NCBI GenBank assembly: GCA_934148535.1
Contig: CAKPDF010000004.1
Location: forward strand, 32,169-96,168
Origin: an uncultured Bacilli bacterium
Lineage (GTDB): Bacteria; Bacillota_I; Bacilli_A; RF39; UBA660
Reading direction: 5' to 3'
DNA: 64,000 bases
Part shown: positions 50,820 to 63,227 of the stretch, one piece after another
Layout of the letters: every line of letters starts with the position of its first letter
Numbering within the stretch: position 1 is the stretch's first letter
Program-made: the position numbers and the translations under genes
The notes under the pieces: model-generated
What the model was told of the DNA's origin: nothing
The model's input: the letters and a program-made list of their open reading frames with translations, nothing else
The model's database searches: none

Positions 50820-50895
50820 TGGTGTCCCGTATGAGATTTGAACTCATGACCCTTTGATTAAAAGTCAAATGCTCTACCGGCTGAGCTAACGGAAC
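50820..50895 (-). tRNA. tRNA-Lys (anticodon TTT), CCA encoded
   Basis: Hand-folded cloverleaf. Anticodon loop CTTTTAA. 7-bp acceptor stem. Terminal CCA encoded. Confidence 0.85.
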
Positions 50896-50902
50896 ATAGA
50901 TA

Positions 50903-50977
50903 TGGTTGCCTCGGCTAGACTCGAACTAGCGAATGCCACAGTCAAAGTGTGGTGCCTTACCGCTTGGCTACGAGGCA
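50903..50977 (-). tRNA. tRNA-Gln (anticodon TTG), CCA encoded
   Basis: Anticodon loop CTTTGAC. T-arm GCTAG-TTCGAGT-CTAGC. Acceptor TGCCTCG/CGAGGCA. Confidence 0.8.
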
Positions 50978-50999
50978 ATTACCGTTGGAACAAATAAAG

Positions 51000-51083
51000 T
51001 GGTGGAAGGAGATGGATTCGAACCATCGAACCCGAAGGAACAGATTTACAGTCTGCCGCGTTTAGCCACTTCGCTACCCTTCC
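51000..51083 (-). tRNA. tRNA-Tyr (anticodon GTA), long variable arm, CCA encoded
   Basis: Anticodon loop CTGTAAA. 84-85 nt with an extra arm, as for bacterial tRNA-Tyr. Confidence 0.8.
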
Positions 51084-51090
51084 AAAAAAA

Positions 51091-51167
<77 letters not shown>

Positions 51168-51173
51168 AAAAAA

Positions 51174-51250
51174 TGGTGGGCGATATAGGACTCGAACCTA
51201 TGACCCCTTGCTTGTAAGGCAAGTGCTCTAACCAACTGAGCTAATCGCCC
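51174..51250 (-). tRNA. tRNA-Val (anticodon TAC), CCA encoded
   Basis: Anticodon stem-loop CTTGC-CTTACAA-GCAAG. Acceptor GGGCGAT/ATCGCCC. Confidence 0.85.
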
Positions 51251-57225: not shown

Positions 57226-57966
57226 ATGAATTTTGAAAATAATTTAATACTTAAGAAGATAATATTAGATAGAGAAAGAATTAAGGATTTTTCTAAATAT
57301 CCATTTAATATTGAAGTAGTAAAAAATTTTAAAGAACTAAACATTACCTCACCAGTTACATTCCTTGTAGGTGAAAATGGTATAGGTAAATCAACTTTCA
57401 TTGAAGCAATAGCGGTTTCACTTGGATTACCACCTGAAGGAGGTACCCAAAACTTTAGATACACAACTAATAATACAACTTCGAATCTATCTAGTTATTT
57501 AAAAGTGTGTACCACTAAAGTACCAGAAACAAAATTCTTTTTAAGAGCAGAAACATTCTATAATTTTTCTACTGAAGTTCAAAGATTAGCAGAAGAAGAT
57601 GATTATTATGAACTTTACAATTCATATGGTGGTAATCTCCACAATTGTTCTCATGGAGAATCATTCTTACAATTAGTAAAAAATAGATTTAGTAAAAATG
57701 GATTATACATCCTAGATGAGCCAGAAGCAGCATTATCTCCTCAAAGACAATTATCATTATTATGCCTTATAAATGAATTAGTTAATGATGGAAGTCAATT
57801 CATAATTGCAACTCATTCCCCAATTTTAATAAGTTATCGTAATGGCAAAATATTAGATTTAAATAACAACTTTGAAGAAATAAATTACAAAGAAACAGAA
57901 ACATATAAAATATACAAAATGTATTTAGATAATGCTGAAAATATGCAACATAGATTATTTGATTAA
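57226..57966 (+). CDS. Stand-alone AAA_21/ABC-type ATPase (SMC-like P-loop NTPase)
   Basis: Walker A FLVGENGIGKST, Q-loop, Walker B LYILDEPEAALSP, H-loop IIATHSP. 246 aa with no transporter partner. Confidence 0.7.
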   Translation: MNFENNLILKKIILDRERIKDFSKYPFNIEVVKNFKELNITSPVTFLVGENGIGKSTFIEAIAVSLGLPPEGGTQNFRYTTNNTTSNLSSYLKVCTTKVPETKFFLRAETFYNFSTEVQRLAEEDDYYELYNSYGGNLHNCSHGESFLQLVKNRFSKNGLYILDEPEAALSPQRQLSLLCLINELVNDGSQFIIATHSPILISYRNGKILDLNNNFEEINYKETETYKIYKMYLDNAENMQHRLFD

Positions 57967-57999
57967 TGATTATAAAAAGAAGTAAGAAGGAAGTAGATC

Positions 58000-58635
58000 A
58001 TGAAGAAGTATCAAGAATATTTAAATAAAGATTATAAATTTGATAAAATAACATTTATAGGTATAATTGCTCTCTTAGTAGTAATAACAGGAATGTTTGG
58101 ATTTATCTATGAATACATATTTTATTATTTCAATGGAGGCATGAAACAATTATTTTGGAGAGGAGGTAACTTTTTTCCTTGGATAAATATTTATGCCACC
58201 GGTTCATTAATGATATTCTATTTTACATATAGATATAGAAAAAAACCATTAAAAGTATTTTTAATAAGTACTATCTCTACAGGCATATTAGAATATATAT
58301 CAGGACTAGGAATGTATATAATAGGAAATGGCAAAAGATGTTGGGATTATAATAAAGAAATATTAAATTTTGGAAATATAAATGGATTTGTTTGTCTAAG
58401 AAGTGTTCTTTTCTTTGGATTATCAAGTCTGTTATTAATATATGTAATAATTCCTCTATGTTTTTATTTAGCAAAAAAGTTAGATAAAAAAGTATTTTTA
58501 ACAATTAGCCTAACTCTATGTACTCTTATTTTAATAGATGAATTCTATAATCTCTTATTTGCAAGAATATTTCATTTAAAAAGAGCATATGATGTCTATA
58601 AAACATTTGGAGTACAATATGTAAAATTTAAATAA
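58000..58635 (+). CDS. Hypothetical polytopic membrane protein
   Basis: Predicted TM helices. No motif recognised. Confidence 0.4.
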   Translation: MKKYQEYLNKDYKFDKITFIGIIALLVVITGMFGFIYEYIFYYFNGGMKQLFWRGGNFFPWINIYATGSLMIFYFTYRYRKKPLKVFLISTISTGILEYISGLGMYIIGNGKRCWDYNKEILNFGNINGFVCLRSVLFFGLSSLLLIYVIIPLCFYLAKKLDKKVFLTISLTLCTLILIDEFYNLLFARIFHLKRAYDVYKTFGVQYVKFK

Positions 58636-58649
58636 AGGAGAGTATTTAT

Positions 58650-59156
58650 ATGGAATATGAAAAATTAATAAAAGAAAGATTTTCAAACAGATCATTTTCA
58701 GATGAATTACTAGAAAATGATAAACTAACTAAAATATTATATGCAGGTTCTCTTGCACCTACTGCTAAAAATAGACAACCCCAAAAAATATATGTAGTCA
58801 AAAGCACTGAAGGCTTACAAAAAATAGATGAAATAACAAAATGTAGATATAATGCTAAAACAGTACTAATAGTAGCAAGTGATAAAAATATTGCTTGGAA
58901 TAATAATAATTATTCAACCTATGAAATGGATGCAACAATAGTAGCAACCCATATGATGTTAGAAGCAACAAATTTAAACGTAGATAATATCTGGATAGAA
59001 ATGTTTGATAAAAATAAACTAAAAGAAATATTCAAACTAGAAGATAATATTGAACCAATATGTCTAATGCCATTAGGCTATAGAAAAGAAGATTCTAAAC
59101 CAAGCCCACTTCATAGCATAAGAAAACCACTTAAAGAAACAGTAAAGTATCTGTAA
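58650..59156 (+). CDS. Nitroreductase-family protein
   Basis: N-terminal RFSNRSF...LYAGSLAPTAKNRQP nitroreductase FMN-binding signature. Confidence 0.75.
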   Translation: MEYEKLIKERFSNRSFSDELLENDKLTKILYAGSLAPTAKNRQPQKIYVVKSTEGLQKIDEITKCRYNAKTVLIVASDKNIAWNNNNYSTYEMDATIVATHMMLEATNLNVDNIWIEMFDKNKLKEIFKLEDNIEPICLMPLGYRKEDSKPSPLHSIRKPLKETVKYL

Positions 59157-59188
59157 AATGTATTGTAAACTAAAAAGGAGAATGTAAA

Positions 59189-60223
59189 ATGAATGTAAGA
59201 AGTATATTGAATGAACTTGATATATTATCAGCGTTATCAAATAATGAAAAATATTTATTTGAAGAAATACCAGAACTAAAGATAATGAAAAAATTTGATC
59301 AAAAACACCCTCATCACCATCTAGACCTATGGGAACATACTAAATTAGCATTATCTATTTCCCCTAATGATGAAATAATAAGAATGGCATTACTACTACA
59401 CGATATAGGAAAACCACATGTATATAAAGAAATAGATGGAATAAGACATTATCAAAATCATGCCAAAGTATCTTCTGATATATCTTATCAAATCTTAAAA
59501 AGACTAAACTTTAATGAAGATGAAATAAAACTAATAACATTCCTAATATTATTCCATGATACCAAAATAACAGAAGAAAATATAAAAGAAAATTATAATT
59601 TATATTATCTATTATATAAAGTACAGTATTGTGATGCCTTAGCACATAATCCAAATTATTTAGAAAAAAGAATTAAATACCTAGAAGATTTAAAAAAATT
59701 ATTTGAAACTTATTCCAATAATATTCAAATGGATAACCTAACAATGATAGCGGCAATAGGACTTAATAATGAATTAGGAAAAAATAATAGCCTTATCTGG
59801 CATCTAAAAGGAGATTTACAATTCTTTAAACAACAAACAATGGGTAAAAAAATAATAATGGGCTATAATACATTTGTTTCCTTACCACAACCATTAAAAG
59901 GAAGAGAACATTTAGTCTTAACTCATAAACAAATAGACCTAGGTAGTGATATAAAAGTATATCATTCCAAACAAGAATTATTAAAATCCCTAAAAGATTT
60001 AAAAGAACAACTATTTATAATTGGAGGAGCCTCTATTTATAAAGAATTCATGCCAAATGCAACTAAATTATTACTAACAGAAATAGAACAAGAAGACATA
60101 GAAGCAGATGCTTACTTCCCAACCTTTAATAAAGAACAATGGGAAAGAGAAACTCTTGAAAGAAAAGAAGATAAAGGTATAAAATATAGCCATGTATTAT
60201 ACAAAAGAAAGGTGAATTTATAA
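59189..60223 (+). CDS. folA: Two-domain protein: N-terminal HD-domain hydrolase fused in frame to C-terminal dihydrofolate reductase
   Basis: Residues ~1-180: H..LD.WEHT...LLLHDIGKP HD motif. Residues ~185-344: canonical DHFR (MIAAIGLNNELGKNNSLIWHLKGDLQFFKQQTMGKKIIMGYNTF...FIIGGASIYKEF). No stop codon or internal RBS between the two halves. Confidence 0.7.
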   Translation: MNVRSILNELDILSALSNNEKYLFEEIPELKIMKKFDQKHPHHHLDLWEHTKLALSISPNDEIIRMALLLHDIGKPHVYKEIDGIRHYQNHAKVSSDISYQILKRLNFNEDEIKLITFLILFHDTKITEENIKENYNLYYLLYKVQYCDALAHNPNYLEKRIKYLEDLKKLFETYSNNIQMDNLTMIAAIGLNNELGKNNSLIWHLKGDLQFFKQQTMGKKIIMGYNTFVSLPQPLKGREHLVLTHKQIDLGSDIKVYHSKQELLKSLKDLKEQLFIIGGASIYKEFMPNATKLLLTEIEQEDIEADAYFPTFNKEQWERETLERKEDKGIKYSHVLYKRKVNL

Positions 60224-60498
60224 TGAACAAAAAAATTGAATATATCCCAATAGGAGTATGCTCTAGAAAAATAGTAGCAGAAGTAGATAATAATAATAAC
60301 ATAACAAAAATAGAATTTACAGGCGGTTGTCCTGGAAACACAAATGCAGTAGCAAGATTATGTATAGGTAGAAACATAGATGAAATAATAAATCTATTAA
60401 AAGGCACACCATGTGGAATAAAAGAAACATCATGCCCAGACCAACTATCTATAGCGCTTACAAAATTAAAAGAAAAAAGTTTAATCACAAACAAATAA
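60223..60498 (+). CDS. TSCPD-domain small protein (four-Cys)
   Basis: Literal TSCPD motif (KETSCPDQLS) and GGCPGNTNAVARL. ATG overlaps the upstream TAA by 1 nt. Confidence 0.6.
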   Translation: MNKKIEYIPIGVCSRKIVAEVDNNNNITKIEFTGGCPGNTNAVARLCIGRNIDEIINLLKGTPCGIKETSCPDQLSIALTKLKEKSLITNK

Positions 60499-60529
60499 AG
60501 TACCACAAAATATATGGTACTTTTTATTA
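60497..60529. terminator. Bidirectional rho-independent terminator
   Basis: AGTACCA-N10-TGGTACT hairpin with TTTTTATT on + and an equivalent T-run on the minus side. Serves the TSCPD gene (+) and the yjcZ-like gene (-). Confidence 0.65.
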
Positions 60530-60546: not shown

Positions 60547-60708
60547 TTAATTGCAACAACCATGTCTATTACCATTATTACCCCAGAATAATACAAAGAA
60601 AATAATTAAAACAACAATAATTATCCAAAGCCAATTTCCACCAAATCCATCATTATAACCATATCCACCGTATCCATATCCATAAGATGGATAACCATAT
60701 CCGTACAT
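60547..60708 (-). CDS. YjcZ-like tiny Gly/Tyr-rich sporulation-family protein, 53 aa. Not in the ORF track.
   Basis: Minus-strand ORF MYGYGYPSYGYGYGGYGYNDGFGGNWLWIIIVVLIIFFVLFWGNNGNRHGCCN with RBS AAAGGAG 9 nt upstream. GY repeats plus a single TM helix, as in the Bacillus/Clostridium YjcZ tiny-TM family. Confidence 0.5.
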   Translation of the reverse strand: MYGYGYPSYGYGYGGYGYNDGFGGNWLWIIIVVLIIFFVLFWGNNGNRHGCCN

Positions 60709-61787: not shown

Positions 61788-62714
61788 ATGAAAGTAAAAT
61801 TAGGATATGTTGCAATAAGTAAAACAATAGAATTAACAGCAAGTACTAATTACACATATACACAATATCAAAAAAATAAAGACTTAAAATTATTAGATAA
61901 AGTAATAATATCTAACTTAGAATCATTAAAAGAAATAATTAAGTATAATATTGCAAACGATATTAAATTTTATAGAATATCCTCTAAAATAATTCCCTTA
62001 GCAACCAAAGATGATGTAAAATTTGATTATATTAATAAATATAAAAATTATTATCAACAAATATCAAAATTAATTAAAGAAAGTAATATGAGAGTAGATT
62101 TTCATGCAGATCAATACACAGTATTAAACAGTACTAAAAAAGAAGTAGTAGAAAACACCATAAAAACATTACAATATCACTATAACTTATTAGAATCATT
62201 AGACATATTAGATAAAGTAGTAGTATTACATGTAGGTAGTAATGTATTAGGTAAGAAAAATTCTAAAACAAGATTTATAAATAACTTTAAAAAATTACCA
62301 CAACATCTTCAAAATTTAATAGTAATAGAAAATGATGATAAAATATTTAATATAGAAGATGTAATAGAAATATCAAATGAAATAAATACTCCTATAGTAT
62401 TAGATTATCATCATCACTTATGTAATAAAAGTAGTAATATAGATTACCCTAAAATATTTAAAAGTTGGAAATCACAAACACCTAAAATGCATTTTTCATC
62501 TTCCAAAAACAAAAGAGAATTTAGAGCACATAATGATTATATAAATAGTAATGATTTTATAGATTTTTTAGAAAATATAAAAATATATAATCAAGATATA
62601 GATATTATGTTAGAAGCAAAAACCAAAGATGAAGCCTTATTTAGATTAGTAAGAGAACTAAAATATAAAACTAGCTATAAATTTATCAACGATACGACAT
62701 TTATAGTAGAGTAG
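61788..62714 (+). CDS. uvsE: UV damage endonuclease (UvsE/UVDE)
   Basis: Colinear with B. subtilis UvsE: MKVKLGYVAIS..., ...VVLHVGSN..., ...LIVIENDDKIF..., VLDYHHHLCN. Confidence 0.85.
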   Translation: MKVKLGYVAISKTIELTASTNYTYTQYQKNKDLKLLDKVIISNLESLKEIIKYNIANDIKFYRISSKIIPLATKDDVKFDYINKYKNYYQQISKLIKESNMRVDFHADQYTVLNSTKKEVVENTIKTLQYHYNLLESLDILDKVVVLHVGSNVLGKKNSKTRFINNFKKLPQHLQNLIVIENDDKIFNIEDVIEISNEINTPIVLDYHHHLCNKSSNIDYPKIFKSWKSQTPKMHFSSSKNKREFRAHNDYINSNDFIDFLENIKIYNQDIDIMLEAKTKDEALFRLVRELKYKTSYKFINDTTFIVE

Positions 62715-62795: not shown

Positions 62796-62871
<76 letters not shown>

Positions 62872-62875
62872 ATAA

Positions 62876-62952
62876 TGGCGGTTCGTACGGGATTTGAACC
62901 CGTGATCTTCTGCGTGACAGGCAGACGTCATAGGCCTCTAGACTAACGAACC
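62876..62952 (-). tRNA. tRNA-Asp (anticodon GTC), CCA encoded
   Basis: Anticodon stem-loop TCTGC-CTGTCAC-GCAGA. Confidence 0.85.
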
Positions 62953-62954
62953 AT

Positions 62955-63031
<77 letters not shown>

Positions 63032-63040
63032 ATAAATTAG

Positions 63041-63133
63041 TGGCGGAGAAAAAGGGATTCGAACCCCTGCGCCGCTCTCGCGACCTCCCGGTTTTCAAGA
63101 CCGGTCCCTTCAACCAGACTTGGGTATTTCTCC
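63041..63133 (-). tRNA. tRNA-Ser (anticodon TGA), long variable arm, CCA encoded
   Basis: About 93 nt. Anticodon stem-loop CCGGT-CTTGAAA-ACCGG. Extra arm GGGAGGTCGCGAGAGCGGCGCAGG. Confidence 0.8.
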
Positions 63134-63138
63134 AAAGA

Positions 63139-63227
63139 TGGTGCCTAAGGTCGGACTTGAACCGACACGAGGGTTGAATCTCGCAGGATTTTAAGTCCTG
63201 TGCGTCTACCTATTCCGCCACTCAGGC
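63139..63227 (-). tRNA. tRNA-Leu (anticodon TAA), long variable arm, CCA encoded
   Basis: About 89 nt. Anticodon stem-loop CAGGA-CTTAAAA-TCCTG. Confidence 0.8.

What the first reader, a model, noticed from the sequence alone, without database searches (positions are those of the whole stretch)
59189..60529. In-frame HD-domain/dihydrofolate-reductase fusion followed by an overlapping TSCPD gene
A single 344-codon ORF encodes an HD phosphohydrolase domain (HDIGKP motif; similar to the HD domain of CCA-adding enzymes) fused without stop or internal RBS to a canonical DHFR (IAAIGLNNELGKNNSLIWHL..., ...IIGGASIYKEF). I am not aware of HD-DHFR fusions. A nucleotide or folate-intermediate phosphatase coupled to DHFR would be a new arrangement. 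The next gene overlaps by 1 nt and encodes a four-Cys TSCPD-domain protein. That domain is otherwise found on ribonucleotide reductases, which suggests a folate/nucleotide-metabolism operon.
Basis: partly seen in the sequence, partly recalled or inferred. Interest (0 to 1): 0.6.

Follow-up and report, generated by a model that had tools for sequence, protein, structure and literature searches.

The report
Rare conserved HD phosphoesterase–DHFR fusion protein
An uncultured, very AT-rich gut bacterium really does encode one protein that joins a metal-dependent phosphoesterase (the type found on tRNA CCA-adding enzymes) to an ordinary dihydrofolate reductase; this domain combination is rare but conserved, its purpose is unknown, and the small four-cysteine gene after it looks like a positional neighbour, not a folate partner.

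Summary
ORF 59189-60223 (+) encodes 344 aa with a Pfam HD domain (aa 52-128, above cut-off) and a full DHFR_1 domain (aa 184-339, 155 bits). A TIGR03905/TSCPD four-Cys gene (60223-60498) overlaps it by 1 nt and ends at a hairpin.

It is not a sequencing error. The identical protein is on at least 23 contigs, and relatives at 44-58% identity keep the same junction and both sets of catalytic residues.

The architecture is very rare: 8 clusters among 5.8 billion proteins, one 50%-identity representative among 1.84 billion, and 1 of 185,579 species genomes.

The HD half is a CCA-adding-enzyme-type HD (PDB 3WFO, TM 0.70) with an H..HD..H..H..D motif. Its roughly 160 stand-alone relatives never sit near DHFR, 5-FCL, folE/P/K/B or thyA. 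They fuse instead to RNA-repair and nucleotide modules.

TSCPD follows other genes outside the fusion clade.

Best reading: a single-origin, vertically kept bifunctional protein, housekeeping FolA plus a nucleotide/RNA-end phosphoesterase, linked in expression rather than in chemistry. A second fusion of the same HD family to 5-formyl-THF cyclo-ligase keeps a folate link possible.

Verdict: new variant of a known kind, of moderate interest.

The parts
59175..59180 (+). Shine-Dalgarno-like AAGGAG, 8 nt before the ATG of the fusion gene
   Evidence: read directly from the sequence
59189..60223 (+). HD-DHFR fusion gene, 344 codons plus TAA
   Evidence: ORF list. Pfam HD and DHFR_1 both above cut-off. 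Identical product on at least 23 contigs. Full-length homologues P0001-P0008 and P0170.
59189..59716 (+). N-terminal all-helical HD domain (aa 1-176) of the CCA-adding-enzyme type. Candidate metal ligands are H50, H71-D72 (in HDIGKP, 59399-59416), H91, H123(-D124) and D149.
   Evidence: TIGR02692 tRNA_CCA_actino E 3.6e-9 and HDIG TIGR00277. PDB 3WFO/3WFP A-adding enzyme, E 1.5e-10 with the family profile. AF2 model pLDDT 95.9 with best Foldseek hit 3WFO, TMq 0.70. These residues are invariant in 62 and in 45 sequences. The H..HD..H..H..D motif is described as diagnostic of dinuclear sites in PMC8177086.
59717..59737 (+). Short junction (aa 177-183) between the last HD helix (159-176) and the first DHFR strand (181-190). 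It has no stop codon and no internal RBS.
   Evidence: secondary structure of the full-length model; junction conserved in the alignment of 9 fusions; sequence
59738..60220 (+). C-terminal FolA-type dihydrofolate reductase domain (aa 184-344)
   Evidence: DHFR_1 155 bits, profile 2-158/159. End-to-end alignment to solved DHFRs 3TQ8 and 4OR7, with the equivalents of E. coli W22, D27, F31, T35, T46, R57, G95-G96, Y100, T113 and D122 conserved (residue roles from textbook knowledge of E. coli FolA). These residues are invariant among the fusions.
60209..60214 (+). AAGGTG Shine-Dalgarno-like site for the TSCPD gene, inside the 3' end of the fusion gene
   Evidence: read directly from the sequence
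60223..60498 (+). TIGR03905-family TSCPD four-Cys protein (91 aa). Its start overlaps the fusion's stop by 1 nt, so it is probably translationally coupled.
   Evidence: Pfam TSCPD 80 bits and TIGR03905 89.8 bits. C13, C36, C64 and C71 invariant. Found directly after the fusion in L001-L005, L011, L096 and L097.
60497..60523 (.). Hairpin (11 bp stem) with T-runs on both sides, between the TSCPD gene and the convergent 53-aa ORF. It is a probable bidirectional terminator that ends the transcription unit.
   Evidence: terminator scan; sequence
57226..59156 (+). Three tightly spaced same-strand upstream genes: AAA_15/ABC-like ATPase 57226-57966, CmpB-family membrane protein 58000-58635 and nitroreductase-family protein 58650-59156. 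Gaps are 33, 14 and 32 nt. They may be co-transcribed, but only in this species.
   Evidence: Pfam. Same order in L001-L004. Different upstream genes in the 52%-identity relative L005.

Best explanation
The gene is a genuine gene fusion. It most likely arose once in an uncultured lineage of AT-rich, spore-forming gut Bacillota and has been inherited vertically since.

The C-terminal half is the cell's FolA-type dihydrofolate reductase (NADPH + dihydrofolate -> tetrahydrofolate). This is inferred from a complete set of catalytic and cofactor-binding residues.

The N-terminal half is a stand-alone version of the HD domain that sits on class II CCA-adding enzymes. It probably has a two-metal site. 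It most likely keeps the job of its many unfused relatives: hydrolysing 2',3'-cyclic-phosphate, 2'-phosphate or 3'-phosphate esters on nucleotides or RNA/tRNA 3' ends. That substrate assignment is inferred by analogy with the E. coli CCA enzyme's HD domain.

The fusion therefore gives obligatory co-expression of two housekeeping activities. It does not create a channelled folate pathway. The TSCPD gene is translationally coupled to the fusion simply because the fusion landed in the slot upstream of it.

Shown: the architecture, its conservation, its rarity, fold assignment and residue conservation. Inferred: both enzymatic activities, the HD substrate class and the lack of chemical coupling.
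For: - Real and conserved. The identical protein is on at least 23 contigs, and its cluster has 61 members on more than 100 contigs. Nine full-length homologues at 44-58% identity per domain share the same short junction. Five loci have no internal stops. Overall dN/dS is 0.15-0.34.
- Single origin. The DHFR domains of all fusions form one clade among 90 DHFRs. Both clades share the downstream TSCPD gene and the wider YutH / tRNA-U5-methyltransferase / UvdE synteny.
- DHFR is canonical.
- The HD is of the CCA-enzyme type. All family-invariant residues are kept in the fused copies. The E. coli CCA HD domain removes 2',3'-cyclic phosphate from tRNA ends (PMC6961547, citing Yakunin 2004).
- The family's other partners point to RNA repair and nucleotide metabolism. 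Fusions: HAD_SAK_2 (RNA-repair HAD), P-loop kinase-like, Panacea and tandem HD. Neighbours: NUDIX, ADP-ribosylglycohydrolase, type I phosphodiesterase, nucleoside phosphorylase and a second HDIG protein.
- No general genomic link to folate genes. Of about 158 stand-alone HD loci, none has DHFR, TSCPD or a separate 5-FCL gene within 5-6 kb. None has FolE, FolP, FolK, FolB or ThyA.
- Full-length AF2 gives two confident domains but pTM of only 0.65, so no confidently fixed interface.
- The window has no THF or ZTP riboswitch.
Against: - The same HD family is independently fused, also through its C-terminus, to another folate enzyme, 5-formyl-THF cyclo-ligase, and that fusion is conserved to 69% identity.
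- The fusion has survived divergence to about 50% identity with a very short linker (about 4-7 residues). This may reflect selection for physical coupling.
- DHFR's other natural fusions (thymidylate synthase from general knowledge; dCMP deaminase and thymidylate kinase) are all functionally coupled.
- No activity has been measured for any member of this HD family.
- Only 64 kb of the genome was available, so its folate and CCA-enzyme gene content is unknown.
Confidence: 0.5

Rival explanations
1. The HD half is a (deoxy)nucleotide phosphohydrolase in the thymidylate cycle, for example supplying dUMP or clearing dUTP or other dNTPs/dNMPs. The protein would then be a functional analogue of DHFR-TS, dCMP-deaminase-DHFR or DHFR-thymidylate-kinase fusions.
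For: - Other natural DHFR fusions seen here are to dCMP deaminase (P0273) and thymidylate kinase (P0229).
- A stand-alone close DHFR sits next to a dCMP/cytidine deaminase gene.
- HD enzymes include dNTP and dNMP hydrolases (table in PMC8177086).
- Neighbours of stand-alone HDs are nucleotide-catabolic genes.
Against: - The HD is closest to the CCA-enzyme HD. It gives no detectable sequence match to YfbR, YpgQ, SAMHD1 or EF1143-type nucleotide hydrolases in the PDB.
- No thyA lies near any HD locus or in the window.
- It does not explain the 5-FCL fusion.
Confidence: 0.2
2. The HD half acts on a phosphorylated pterin of the folate pathway. It would be a FolQ2-like dihydroneopterin-triphosphate pyrophosphatase, or an MptB-like hydrolase of dihydroneopterin 2',3'-cyclic phosphate, fused to the last enzyme of the pathway.
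For: - de Crecy-Lagard et al. 2007 (PMC1971073) proposed HDIG-superfamily 'FolQ2' genes (e.g. CPE1020 of C. perfringens) as the missing DHNTP pyrophosphatase. These genes lie in folate clusters that can include dhfr and fhs.
- This domain matches the HDIG model TIGR00277, though below its cut-off (25.9 vs 27.6 bits).
- Fusions to two folate enzymes, DHFR and 5-FCL.
- Archaeal MptB is an HD cyclic phosphodiesterase acting on a neopterin cyclic phosphate (my own knowledge, not checked here).
Against: - No FolE, FolP, FolK or FolB lies next to any of about 160 loci of this HD family or in the 64-kb window. The seeds were validated by Pfam.
- The family is spread mainly through small-genome uncultured gut Bacilli ('Mycoplasma sp. 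CAG', Tenericutes and Erysipelotrichaceae MAGs). Such organisms usually salvage folate (general knowledge).
- DHFR and 5-FCL are salvage and recycling enzymes, not pterin-branch enzymes.
Confidence: 0.1
3. The HD half works on the 2'-phosphate of NADP(H) or a 2'-phospho-ADP-ribose derivative, tuning or cleaning the cofactor that DHFR uses.
For: - The E. coli CCA HD domain is reported to have 2'-nucleotidase activity (title of Yakunin et al. 2004, cited in PMC6961547).
- ADP-ribosylglycohydrolase and NUDIX genes lie directly next to some stand-alone HDs.
Against: - It is purely analogical.
- 5-FCL does not use NADPH.
- Destroying NADP(H) next to an NADPH-dependent enzyme has no obvious benefit.
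- Those neighbours occur in only 4 of 79 loci each.
Confidence: 0.05
4. The HD half is catalytically silent here and serves only as a structural, oligomerisation or regulatory appendage of DHFR.
For: Within-species comparison shows few synonymous and several non-synonymous changes in the HD half, but the counts are tiny.
Against: All candidate metal ligands and 29 family-invariant residues are retained in every fusion across about 50% divergence.
Confidence: 0.05
5. Artefact: an assembly chimera or a missed frameshift/stop joins two separate genes.
For: None found.
Against: The same 344-aa product is on at least 23 contigs from independent assemblies and samples. Further copies occur in a GenBank MAG (L011) and another metagenome (L097). 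The architecture and junction are conserved in relatives at about 50% identity.
Confidence: 0.01

Closest known systems
FolA-type dihydrofolate reductase (Pfam DHFR_1; e.g. E. coli FolA, Coxiella burnetii DHFR PDB 3TQ8)
   Same: The C-terminal 161 aa align end to end with solved bacterial DHFRs, and the catalytic Asp, the GG motif and other key residues are conserved.
   Different: It carries a 180-aa N-terminal HD domain. NCBIfam scores stay below every equivalog or exception cut-off, so it cannot be assigned to a named Dfr type.
Natural bifunctional DHFRs: DHFR-thymidylate synthase of protozoa and plants (general knowledge); dCMP deaminase-DHFR (P0273) and DHFR-thymidylate kinase (P0229) seen here
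   Same: DHFR is covalently joined to a second enzyme in one polypeptide.
   Different: The partner here is not a known thymidylate-cycle enzyme but a CCA-type HD phosphoesterase, and it is N-terminal.
HD domain of class II CCA-/A-adding enzymes (E. coli Cca; Aquifex aeolicus A-adding enzyme, PDB 3WFO-3WFS)
   Same: It is the best sequence, profile and fold match. The PEL...HxxD..HT...HDIGKP...H...H motif order is the same.
   Different: There is no nucleotidyltransferase head domain, so it cannot add CCA. It is a free-standing or fused HD module.
FolQ2, the predicted HDIG-superfamily DHNTP pyrophosphatase (CPE1020 of C. perfringens; PMC1971073)
   Same: An HD/HDIG-type phosphohydrolase genetically tied to folate genes including dhfr.
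   Different: FolQ2 is defined by clustering with folE-folP-folBK. This family shows no such clustering. Homology to CPE1020 was not tested, and FolQ2 itself is still only a prediction.
'Swiss army knife' RNA-repair proteins and Pnkp-like end-healing enzymes
   Same: The same HD family is fused to HAD_SAK_2 and to P-loop kinase-like domains. This is the combination expected of RNA end-healing modules.
   Different: The window protein has neither a kinase, HAD or ligase module nor a neighbouring ligase.
TIGR03905 family TSCPD four-Cys proteins
   Same: The downstream gene scores above the family cut-off and has the four invariant Cys and the TSCPDQL motif.
   Different: Nothing distinguishes it from other members. 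The family is uncharacterised: only one relevant paper mentions TSCPD and no solved structure matches by sequence.

Membership tests
DHFR_1 / FolA dihydrofolate reductase | Full-length match to the family profile above the curated cut-off | tested here: met
   PF00186 155.4 bits vs cut-off 25, profile 2-158/159
DHFR_1 / FolA dihydrofolate reductase | Catalytic acid (E. coli D27) plus folate- and NADPH-binding residues (W22, F31, T46, R57, G95-G96, Y100, T113) | tested here: met
   Residue-by-residue alignment to 4OR7 and 3TQ8. Invariant in 9 fusions. Residue roles come from established knowledge of E. coli FolA.
DHFR_1 / FolA dihydrofolate reductase | NADPH-dependent reduction of dihydrofolate | not testable with these tools
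   needs an enzyme assay or folA complementation
HD metal-dependent phosphohydrolase superfamily | Profile match above cut-off and the H...HD...D metal-ligand motif | tested here: met
   PF01966 32.2-34.2 bits vs cut-off 22. H50, H71-D72 and D149 invariant.
HD metal-dependent phosphohydrolase superfamily | All-helical HD fold | tested here: met
   AF2 model pLDDT 95.9, pTM 0.91. Top Foldseek hits are HD-containing proteins: 3WFO TMq 0.70 and 2PQ7.
Dinuclear HD subgroup (H..HD..H..H..D) | Two additional conserved His that bind the second metal | tested here: inconclusive
   H91 and H123 are invariant and in the right order, and the motif rule is from PMC8177086. Their geometry in the model and the metal content were not examined.
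Class II CCA-adding enzyme (tRNA nucleotidyltransferase) | HD domain of the Cca type | tested here: met
   TIGR02692 positions 238-342, E 3.6e-9. PRK10885 positions 206-323. PDB A-adding enzyme E 1.5e-10.
Class II CCA-adding enzyme (tRNA nucleotidyltransferase) | N-terminal Pol-beta nucleotidyltransferase head domain; whole-protein score above the equivalog cut-off | tested here: not met
   The protein starts at the HD region. TIGR02692 scores 35.8 bits vs cut-off 438.8, and no PolyA_pol domain was found. It is not a CCA-adding enzyme.
FolQ2 (predicted HDIG DHNTP pyrophosphatase) | Clustering with pterin-branch folate genes (folE, folP, folB, folK) | tested here: not met
   No tblastn hit of Pfam-validated FolE, FolP, FolK or FolB seeds in the window or in 176 loci (1.6 Mb)
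FolQ2 (predicted HDIG DHNTP pyrophosphatase) | Sequence homology to CPE1020 at subfamily level | not tested
   The CPE1020 sequence was not obtainable with the tools; the supplement gives only gene numbers
TIGR03905 TSCPD four-Cys family (downstream gene) | Score above the family cut-off and four invariant cysteines | tested here: met
   89.8 bits vs cut-off 67.7. C13, C36, C64 and C71 invariant in 17 sequences.
   Outside the clade TSCPD follows Metallophos_2, a 475-aa unknown or TGT. The closest stand-alone DHFR (P0044) has no TSCPD neighbour. The upstream genes are an ATPase, CmpB and a nitroreductase.

The most novel reading that the evidence does not exclude
The CCA-type stand-alone HD family, widespread in uncultured gut Bacilli and entirely uncharacterised, has a role tied to folate cofactors. 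Its two independent C-terminal fusions, to DHFR and to 5-formyl-THF cyclo-ligase, would be Rosetta-stone evidence for an unrecognised phosphoesterase step. That step could be damage control or salvage of a phosphorylated pterin or nucleotide-linked intermediate, or a non-Nudix DHNTP pyrophosphatase.
Probability: 0.12. Interest if true: 0.65.

Novelty: new variant of a known kind. Interest (0 to 1): 0.36.

Why it matters
DHFR is one of the best-studied enzymes and drug targets, and its natural fusions so far join it to thymidylate-cycle enzymes. A conserved fusion to a CCA-enzyme-type HD phosphoesterase is a new architecture. Together with the HD-5-FCL fusion, it gives a concrete and cheap experimental handle on a large, uncharacterised HD family of gut Bacillota. 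If the HD half proves to act on a folate-pathway or thymidylate-cycle substrate, it would fill or reshape a known gap, since the DHNTP pyrophosphatase is still unassigned in many bacteria. If it acts on RNA or nucleotide cyclic phosphates, as I expect, the fusion is a curiosity of genome compaction. It would mainly warn annotators not to read pathway meaning into every fusion or neighbour.

Tried and rejected
- **Sequencing or assembly error.** Rejected.
- **TSCPD as a DHFR partner.** I examined its homologues and four contexts outside the clade. The link is positional only.
- **Conserved neighbours of stand-alone HDs.** I clustered 710 neighbouring ORFs from 79 loci. The best recurrent neighbour, an ABC ATPase, occurs in only 11 of 79 loci, and there is no folate gene.
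- **tblastn searches.** Only the fusions themselves hit.
- **HD-domain NJ tree.** The fusions split into two clades with stand-alone sequences (P0010/P0011) as sisters of the window clade. I do not read this as two origins. The DHFR tree is monophyletic, the junction, TSCPD and synteny are shared, and the deep HD nodes are star-like. The C-terminal tail of P0010 is not a DHFR remnant (local score 27).
- **Full-length AF2.** It gave no confident inter-domain geometry (pTM 0.65). An alignment that included stand-alone DHFRs misaligned them (A3) and was discarded.
- **Two context look-ups** with large window proteins found no exact record, so window 1-49 kb was not annotated.
- **Literature.** No paper describes an HD-DHFR fusion, and TSCPD is essentially unstudied.
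- **Domain-level dN/dS** within the species rests on too few substitutions to be informative.
Full report

Yes. The ORF list gives a single 344-codon ATG-initiated frame at 59189..60223 (+). It is followed by a 91-codon frame at 60223..60498 whose ATG shares its A with the TAA stop. AAGGAG lies 8 nt before the first ATG, and AAGGTG lies 8 nt before the second. No Shine-Dalgarno-like run precedes the internal Met181 or Met186.

Pfam places an HD domain at aa 52-128 (32 bits, cut-off 22) and a complete DHFR_1 domain at aa 184-339 (155 bits). The second gene is TSCPD/TIGR03905, scoring above both cut-offs. A hairpin at 60497-60523 separates it from a convergent small ORF. The window is 25% GC, so a 344-codon open frame is not a chance feature.

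**2. Is it an error?**

No. The identical protein is called on at least 23 contigs from independent metagenome assemblies, up to 135 kb long. Its 90% cluster has 61 members on more than 100 contigs. It recurs in a GenBank MAG contig (L011) and in another metagenome (L097).

Eight 90%-identity clusters (P0001-P0008) carry both Pfam domains over the full length. Aligned, they share the same short junction and are 44-53% (HD) and 53-58% (DHFR) identical to the window protein. No locus has an internal stop, and overall dN/dS among close strains is 0.15-0.34.

**3. How rare is it, and how did it arise?**

A profile of the nine fusions was searched against 1.84 billion 50%-identity representatives. 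It returned exactly one full-length representative (P0170); every other hit covered only one half. Among one genome for each of 185,579 species, only one contig carries the fusion. That contig is 3.7 kb, is labelled Oribacterium and is probably mis-binned.

The evidence favours one origin followed by vertical descent:
- The DHFR halves of all fusions form one clade among 90 DHFRs.
- Every fusion locus with enough flank has the TSCPD gene directly downstream.
- The window species and the 52%-identity relative L005 share YutH, a tRNA-U5-methyltransferase and UvdE nearby.

The HD-domain NJ tree splits the fusions into two groups with unfused sisters. I attribute this to poor deep resolution, or possibly to a secondary fission.

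**4. What are the two halves?**

*DHFR half.* It aligns end to end with solved bacterial DHFRs. The equivalents of E. coli W22, D27, F31, T35, T46, R57, G95-G96, Y100, T113 and D122 are conserved, and they are invariant among the fusions.

*N-terminal half.* Taken alone, it matches the HD region of CCA tRNA nucleotidyltransferases (TIGR02692, E 3.6e-9; PRK10885) and the HDIG model. In the PDB its only significant sequence relatives are the Aquifex A-adding enzyme entries 3WFO-3WFS. An AlphaFold model built on 62 homologues is very confident (pLDDT 95.9). Its best structural matches are the same entries (TMq 0.70).

H50, H71-D72, H91, H123-D124 and D149 are invariant. This is the H..HD..H..H..D pattern that a review of the superfamily gives as diagnostic of two-metal sites (PMC8177086). 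The E. coli CCA enzyme's HD domain removes 2',3'-cyclic phosphate from tRNA ends and has 2'-nucleotidase and phosphatase activities (PMC6961547, citing Yakunin 2004).

There is no nucleotidyltransferase head domain, so the protein is not a CCA-adding enzyme.

**5. What does the rest of the HD family tell us?**

Most relatives are unfused proteins of about 190 aa from uncultured gut Bacilli, with some from Clostridia.

Across 79 genome loci and 79 metagenome loci with an unfused HD, none has a DHFR, a TSCPD or a separate 5-FCL gene within 5-6 kb. None has FolE, FolP, FolK, FolB or ThyA either.

Neighbourhoods are heterogeneous. The commonest neighbour is an ABC ATPase in 11 of 79 loci. Smaller recurrent sets are NUDIX, ADP-ribosylglycohydrolase, type I phosphodiesterase, nucleoside phosphorylase, endonuclease IV-like and a second HDIG protein. 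Two loci lie in cell-division and cell-wall clusters.

The domain is a promiscuous fusion module. Its partners are:
- HAD_SAK_2, the RNA-repair 'Swiss army knife' HAD domain;
- P-loop kinase-like domains;
- Panacea;
- a weak receiver (response-regulator) domain;
- tandem HD-HD;
- several unknown N-terminal domains;
- C-terminally, 5-formyl-THF cyclo-ligase, a fusion conserved to 69% identity.

**6. The TSCPD gene**

It is a typical TIGR03905 member with four invariant Cys. It has no solved relative by sequence and essentially no literature.

Its closest homologues (66-78% identity) are those next to the other fusions. The next closest (58-66%) occupy a syntenic slot (epimerase ... TSCPD ... 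HSP20 ... XFP) but follow a Metallophos_2 phosphoesterase or a 475-aa unknown. Another follows TGT. The nearest unfused DHFR (P0044) lies in a ybeY-dgkA-DHFR-deaminase-era operon with no TSCPD.

The DHFR-TSCPD pairing is therefore lineage-specific and positional. It is not evidence for a folate or nucleotide operon. The three genes upstream (ATPase, CmpB, nitroreductase) are specific to this species.

**7. Mechanism**

The best-supported reading is a bifunctional polypeptide. The FolA half reduces dihydrofolate. The HD half keeps the family's generic phosphoesterase job on nucleotide or RNA 2',3'-cyclic-, 2'- or 3'-phosphates. The fusion enforces co-expression and does not provide substrate channelling. 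The full-length model has two confident domains but pTM of only 0.65, so no confident interface.

I give this about 0.5. The main reason for doubt is the second folate-enzyme fusion (5-FCL), together with the published proposal that HDIG 'FolQ2' genes in folate clusters encode the missing DHNTP pyrophosphatase (PMC1971073).

The rivals are:
- a thymidylate-cycle nucleotide hydrolase (0.2);
- a pterin phosphohydrolase (0.1);
- an NADP(H) 2'-phosphatase (0.05);
- a silent structural domain (0.05);
- an artefact (0.01).

**8. Novelty and score**

No paper in the searched library describes an HD-DHFR fusion. Both domains belong to well-known families, and the likely chemistry of each is conventional. 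This makes it a new variant (architecture) of a known kind.

Interest is moderate at 0.36. The fusion is real, rare and conserved, and it offers an easy experimental entry into an uncharacterised HD family. The evidence gathered here argues against the more exciting folate-pathway interpretation and against the operon idea.

Noticed in passing
P0096, P0184; L010:2460-3563; L108 and L111 (HD at 5001-~5510, 5-FCL to ~6100): The same CCA-type HD family is fused C-terminally to a 5-formyltetrahydrofolate cyclo-ligase domain (PF01812, 140 bits). The fusion is conserved, with FCL domains 69-89% identical. It is a second, independent folate-enzyme fusion.
   Followed up: partly
P0115, P0018, L059:5527-6021; L008:6596-7054, L009:3572-3991, L029:6557-6976, L046:3594-3869: An unknown domain of about 150 aa with no Pfam match is either fused N-terminally to the HD or encoded as a separate gene immediately after the stand-alone HD. 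This is a Rosetta-stone pair of unknown function.
   Followed up: partly
P0174, P0183 (HAD_SAK_2-HD); P0083, P0181 (P-loop-HD); P0020 (Panacea-HD); P0012, P0171 (HD-HD): The HD family is fused to RNA-repair-type HAD domains, P-loop kinase-like domains, the Panacea antitoxin-associated domain, and itself in tandem. These partners suggest an RNA end-healing or conflict-system role.
   Followed up: partly
P0273 (316 aa), P0229 (391 aa): Two other natural DHFR fusions turned up in the representative search: dCMP/cytidine deaminase-DHFR and DHFR-thymidylate kinase.
   Followed up: no
P0044 (239 aa), P0057 (196 aa); L091:6001-6720: The closest unfused DHFRs carry Cys-rich C-terminal tails (e.g. ...SYGECCKYDGS..., ...SYDSCCISDHS...) with no domain match. 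P0044 lies in a ybeY-dgkA-DHFR-deaminase-era-recO operon.
   Followed up: no
window 60547-60708 (-): A 53-aa ORF has a Gly/Tyr-repeat N-terminus (MYGYGYPSYGYGYGGYGY...), a hydrophobic segment and a C-terminal CC. It is called as a gene in L001-L004 and is convergent with the TSCPD gene, sharing the hairpin 60497-60523. From memory it resembles small YjcZ-like sporulation peptides; this was not tested.
   Followed up: no
L094:4475-5255, L095:810-1590, L177:4558-6252, L092:3880-5255: Outside the fusion clade the TSCPD gene is also tightly coupled (overlap or 1-15 nt gap) to whatever gene lies upstream: a Metallophos_2 phosphoesterase, a 475-aa unknown or tRNA-guanine transglycosylase. Two of four upstream partners, counting HD-DHFR, are metal-dependent phosphoesterases. 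No explanation.
   Followed up: partly
window 57226-59156 (+): An AAA_15/AAA_21 (AbiEii-like/ABC-like) ATPase, a CmpB-family membrane protein and a small nitroreductase-family protein sit head-to-tail directly upstream of the fusion, with gaps of 14-33 nt. They may be co-transcribed in this species only.
   Followed up: partly
window 50823-51250 (-) and 62799-63227 (-): Two clusters of five tRNA genes each. No riboswitch (THF, ZTP or other) or any other Rfam family was found anywhere in the 64 kb.
   Followed up: no
L011 (CAVJSY010000123.1): The only species-representative genome carrying the fusion is a 3.7-kb contig in a MAG labelled Oribacterium sp. All related sequences come from Bacilli-type MAGs, so the contig is probably mis-binned.
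   Followed up: no
window 61788-62714 (+); L001, L005: A UvdE UV-damage endonuclease gene, a YutH spore-coat homologue and a tRNA U5-methyltransferase are syntenic with the fusion in both fusion clades. This indicates a spore-forming host lineage.
   Followed up: no
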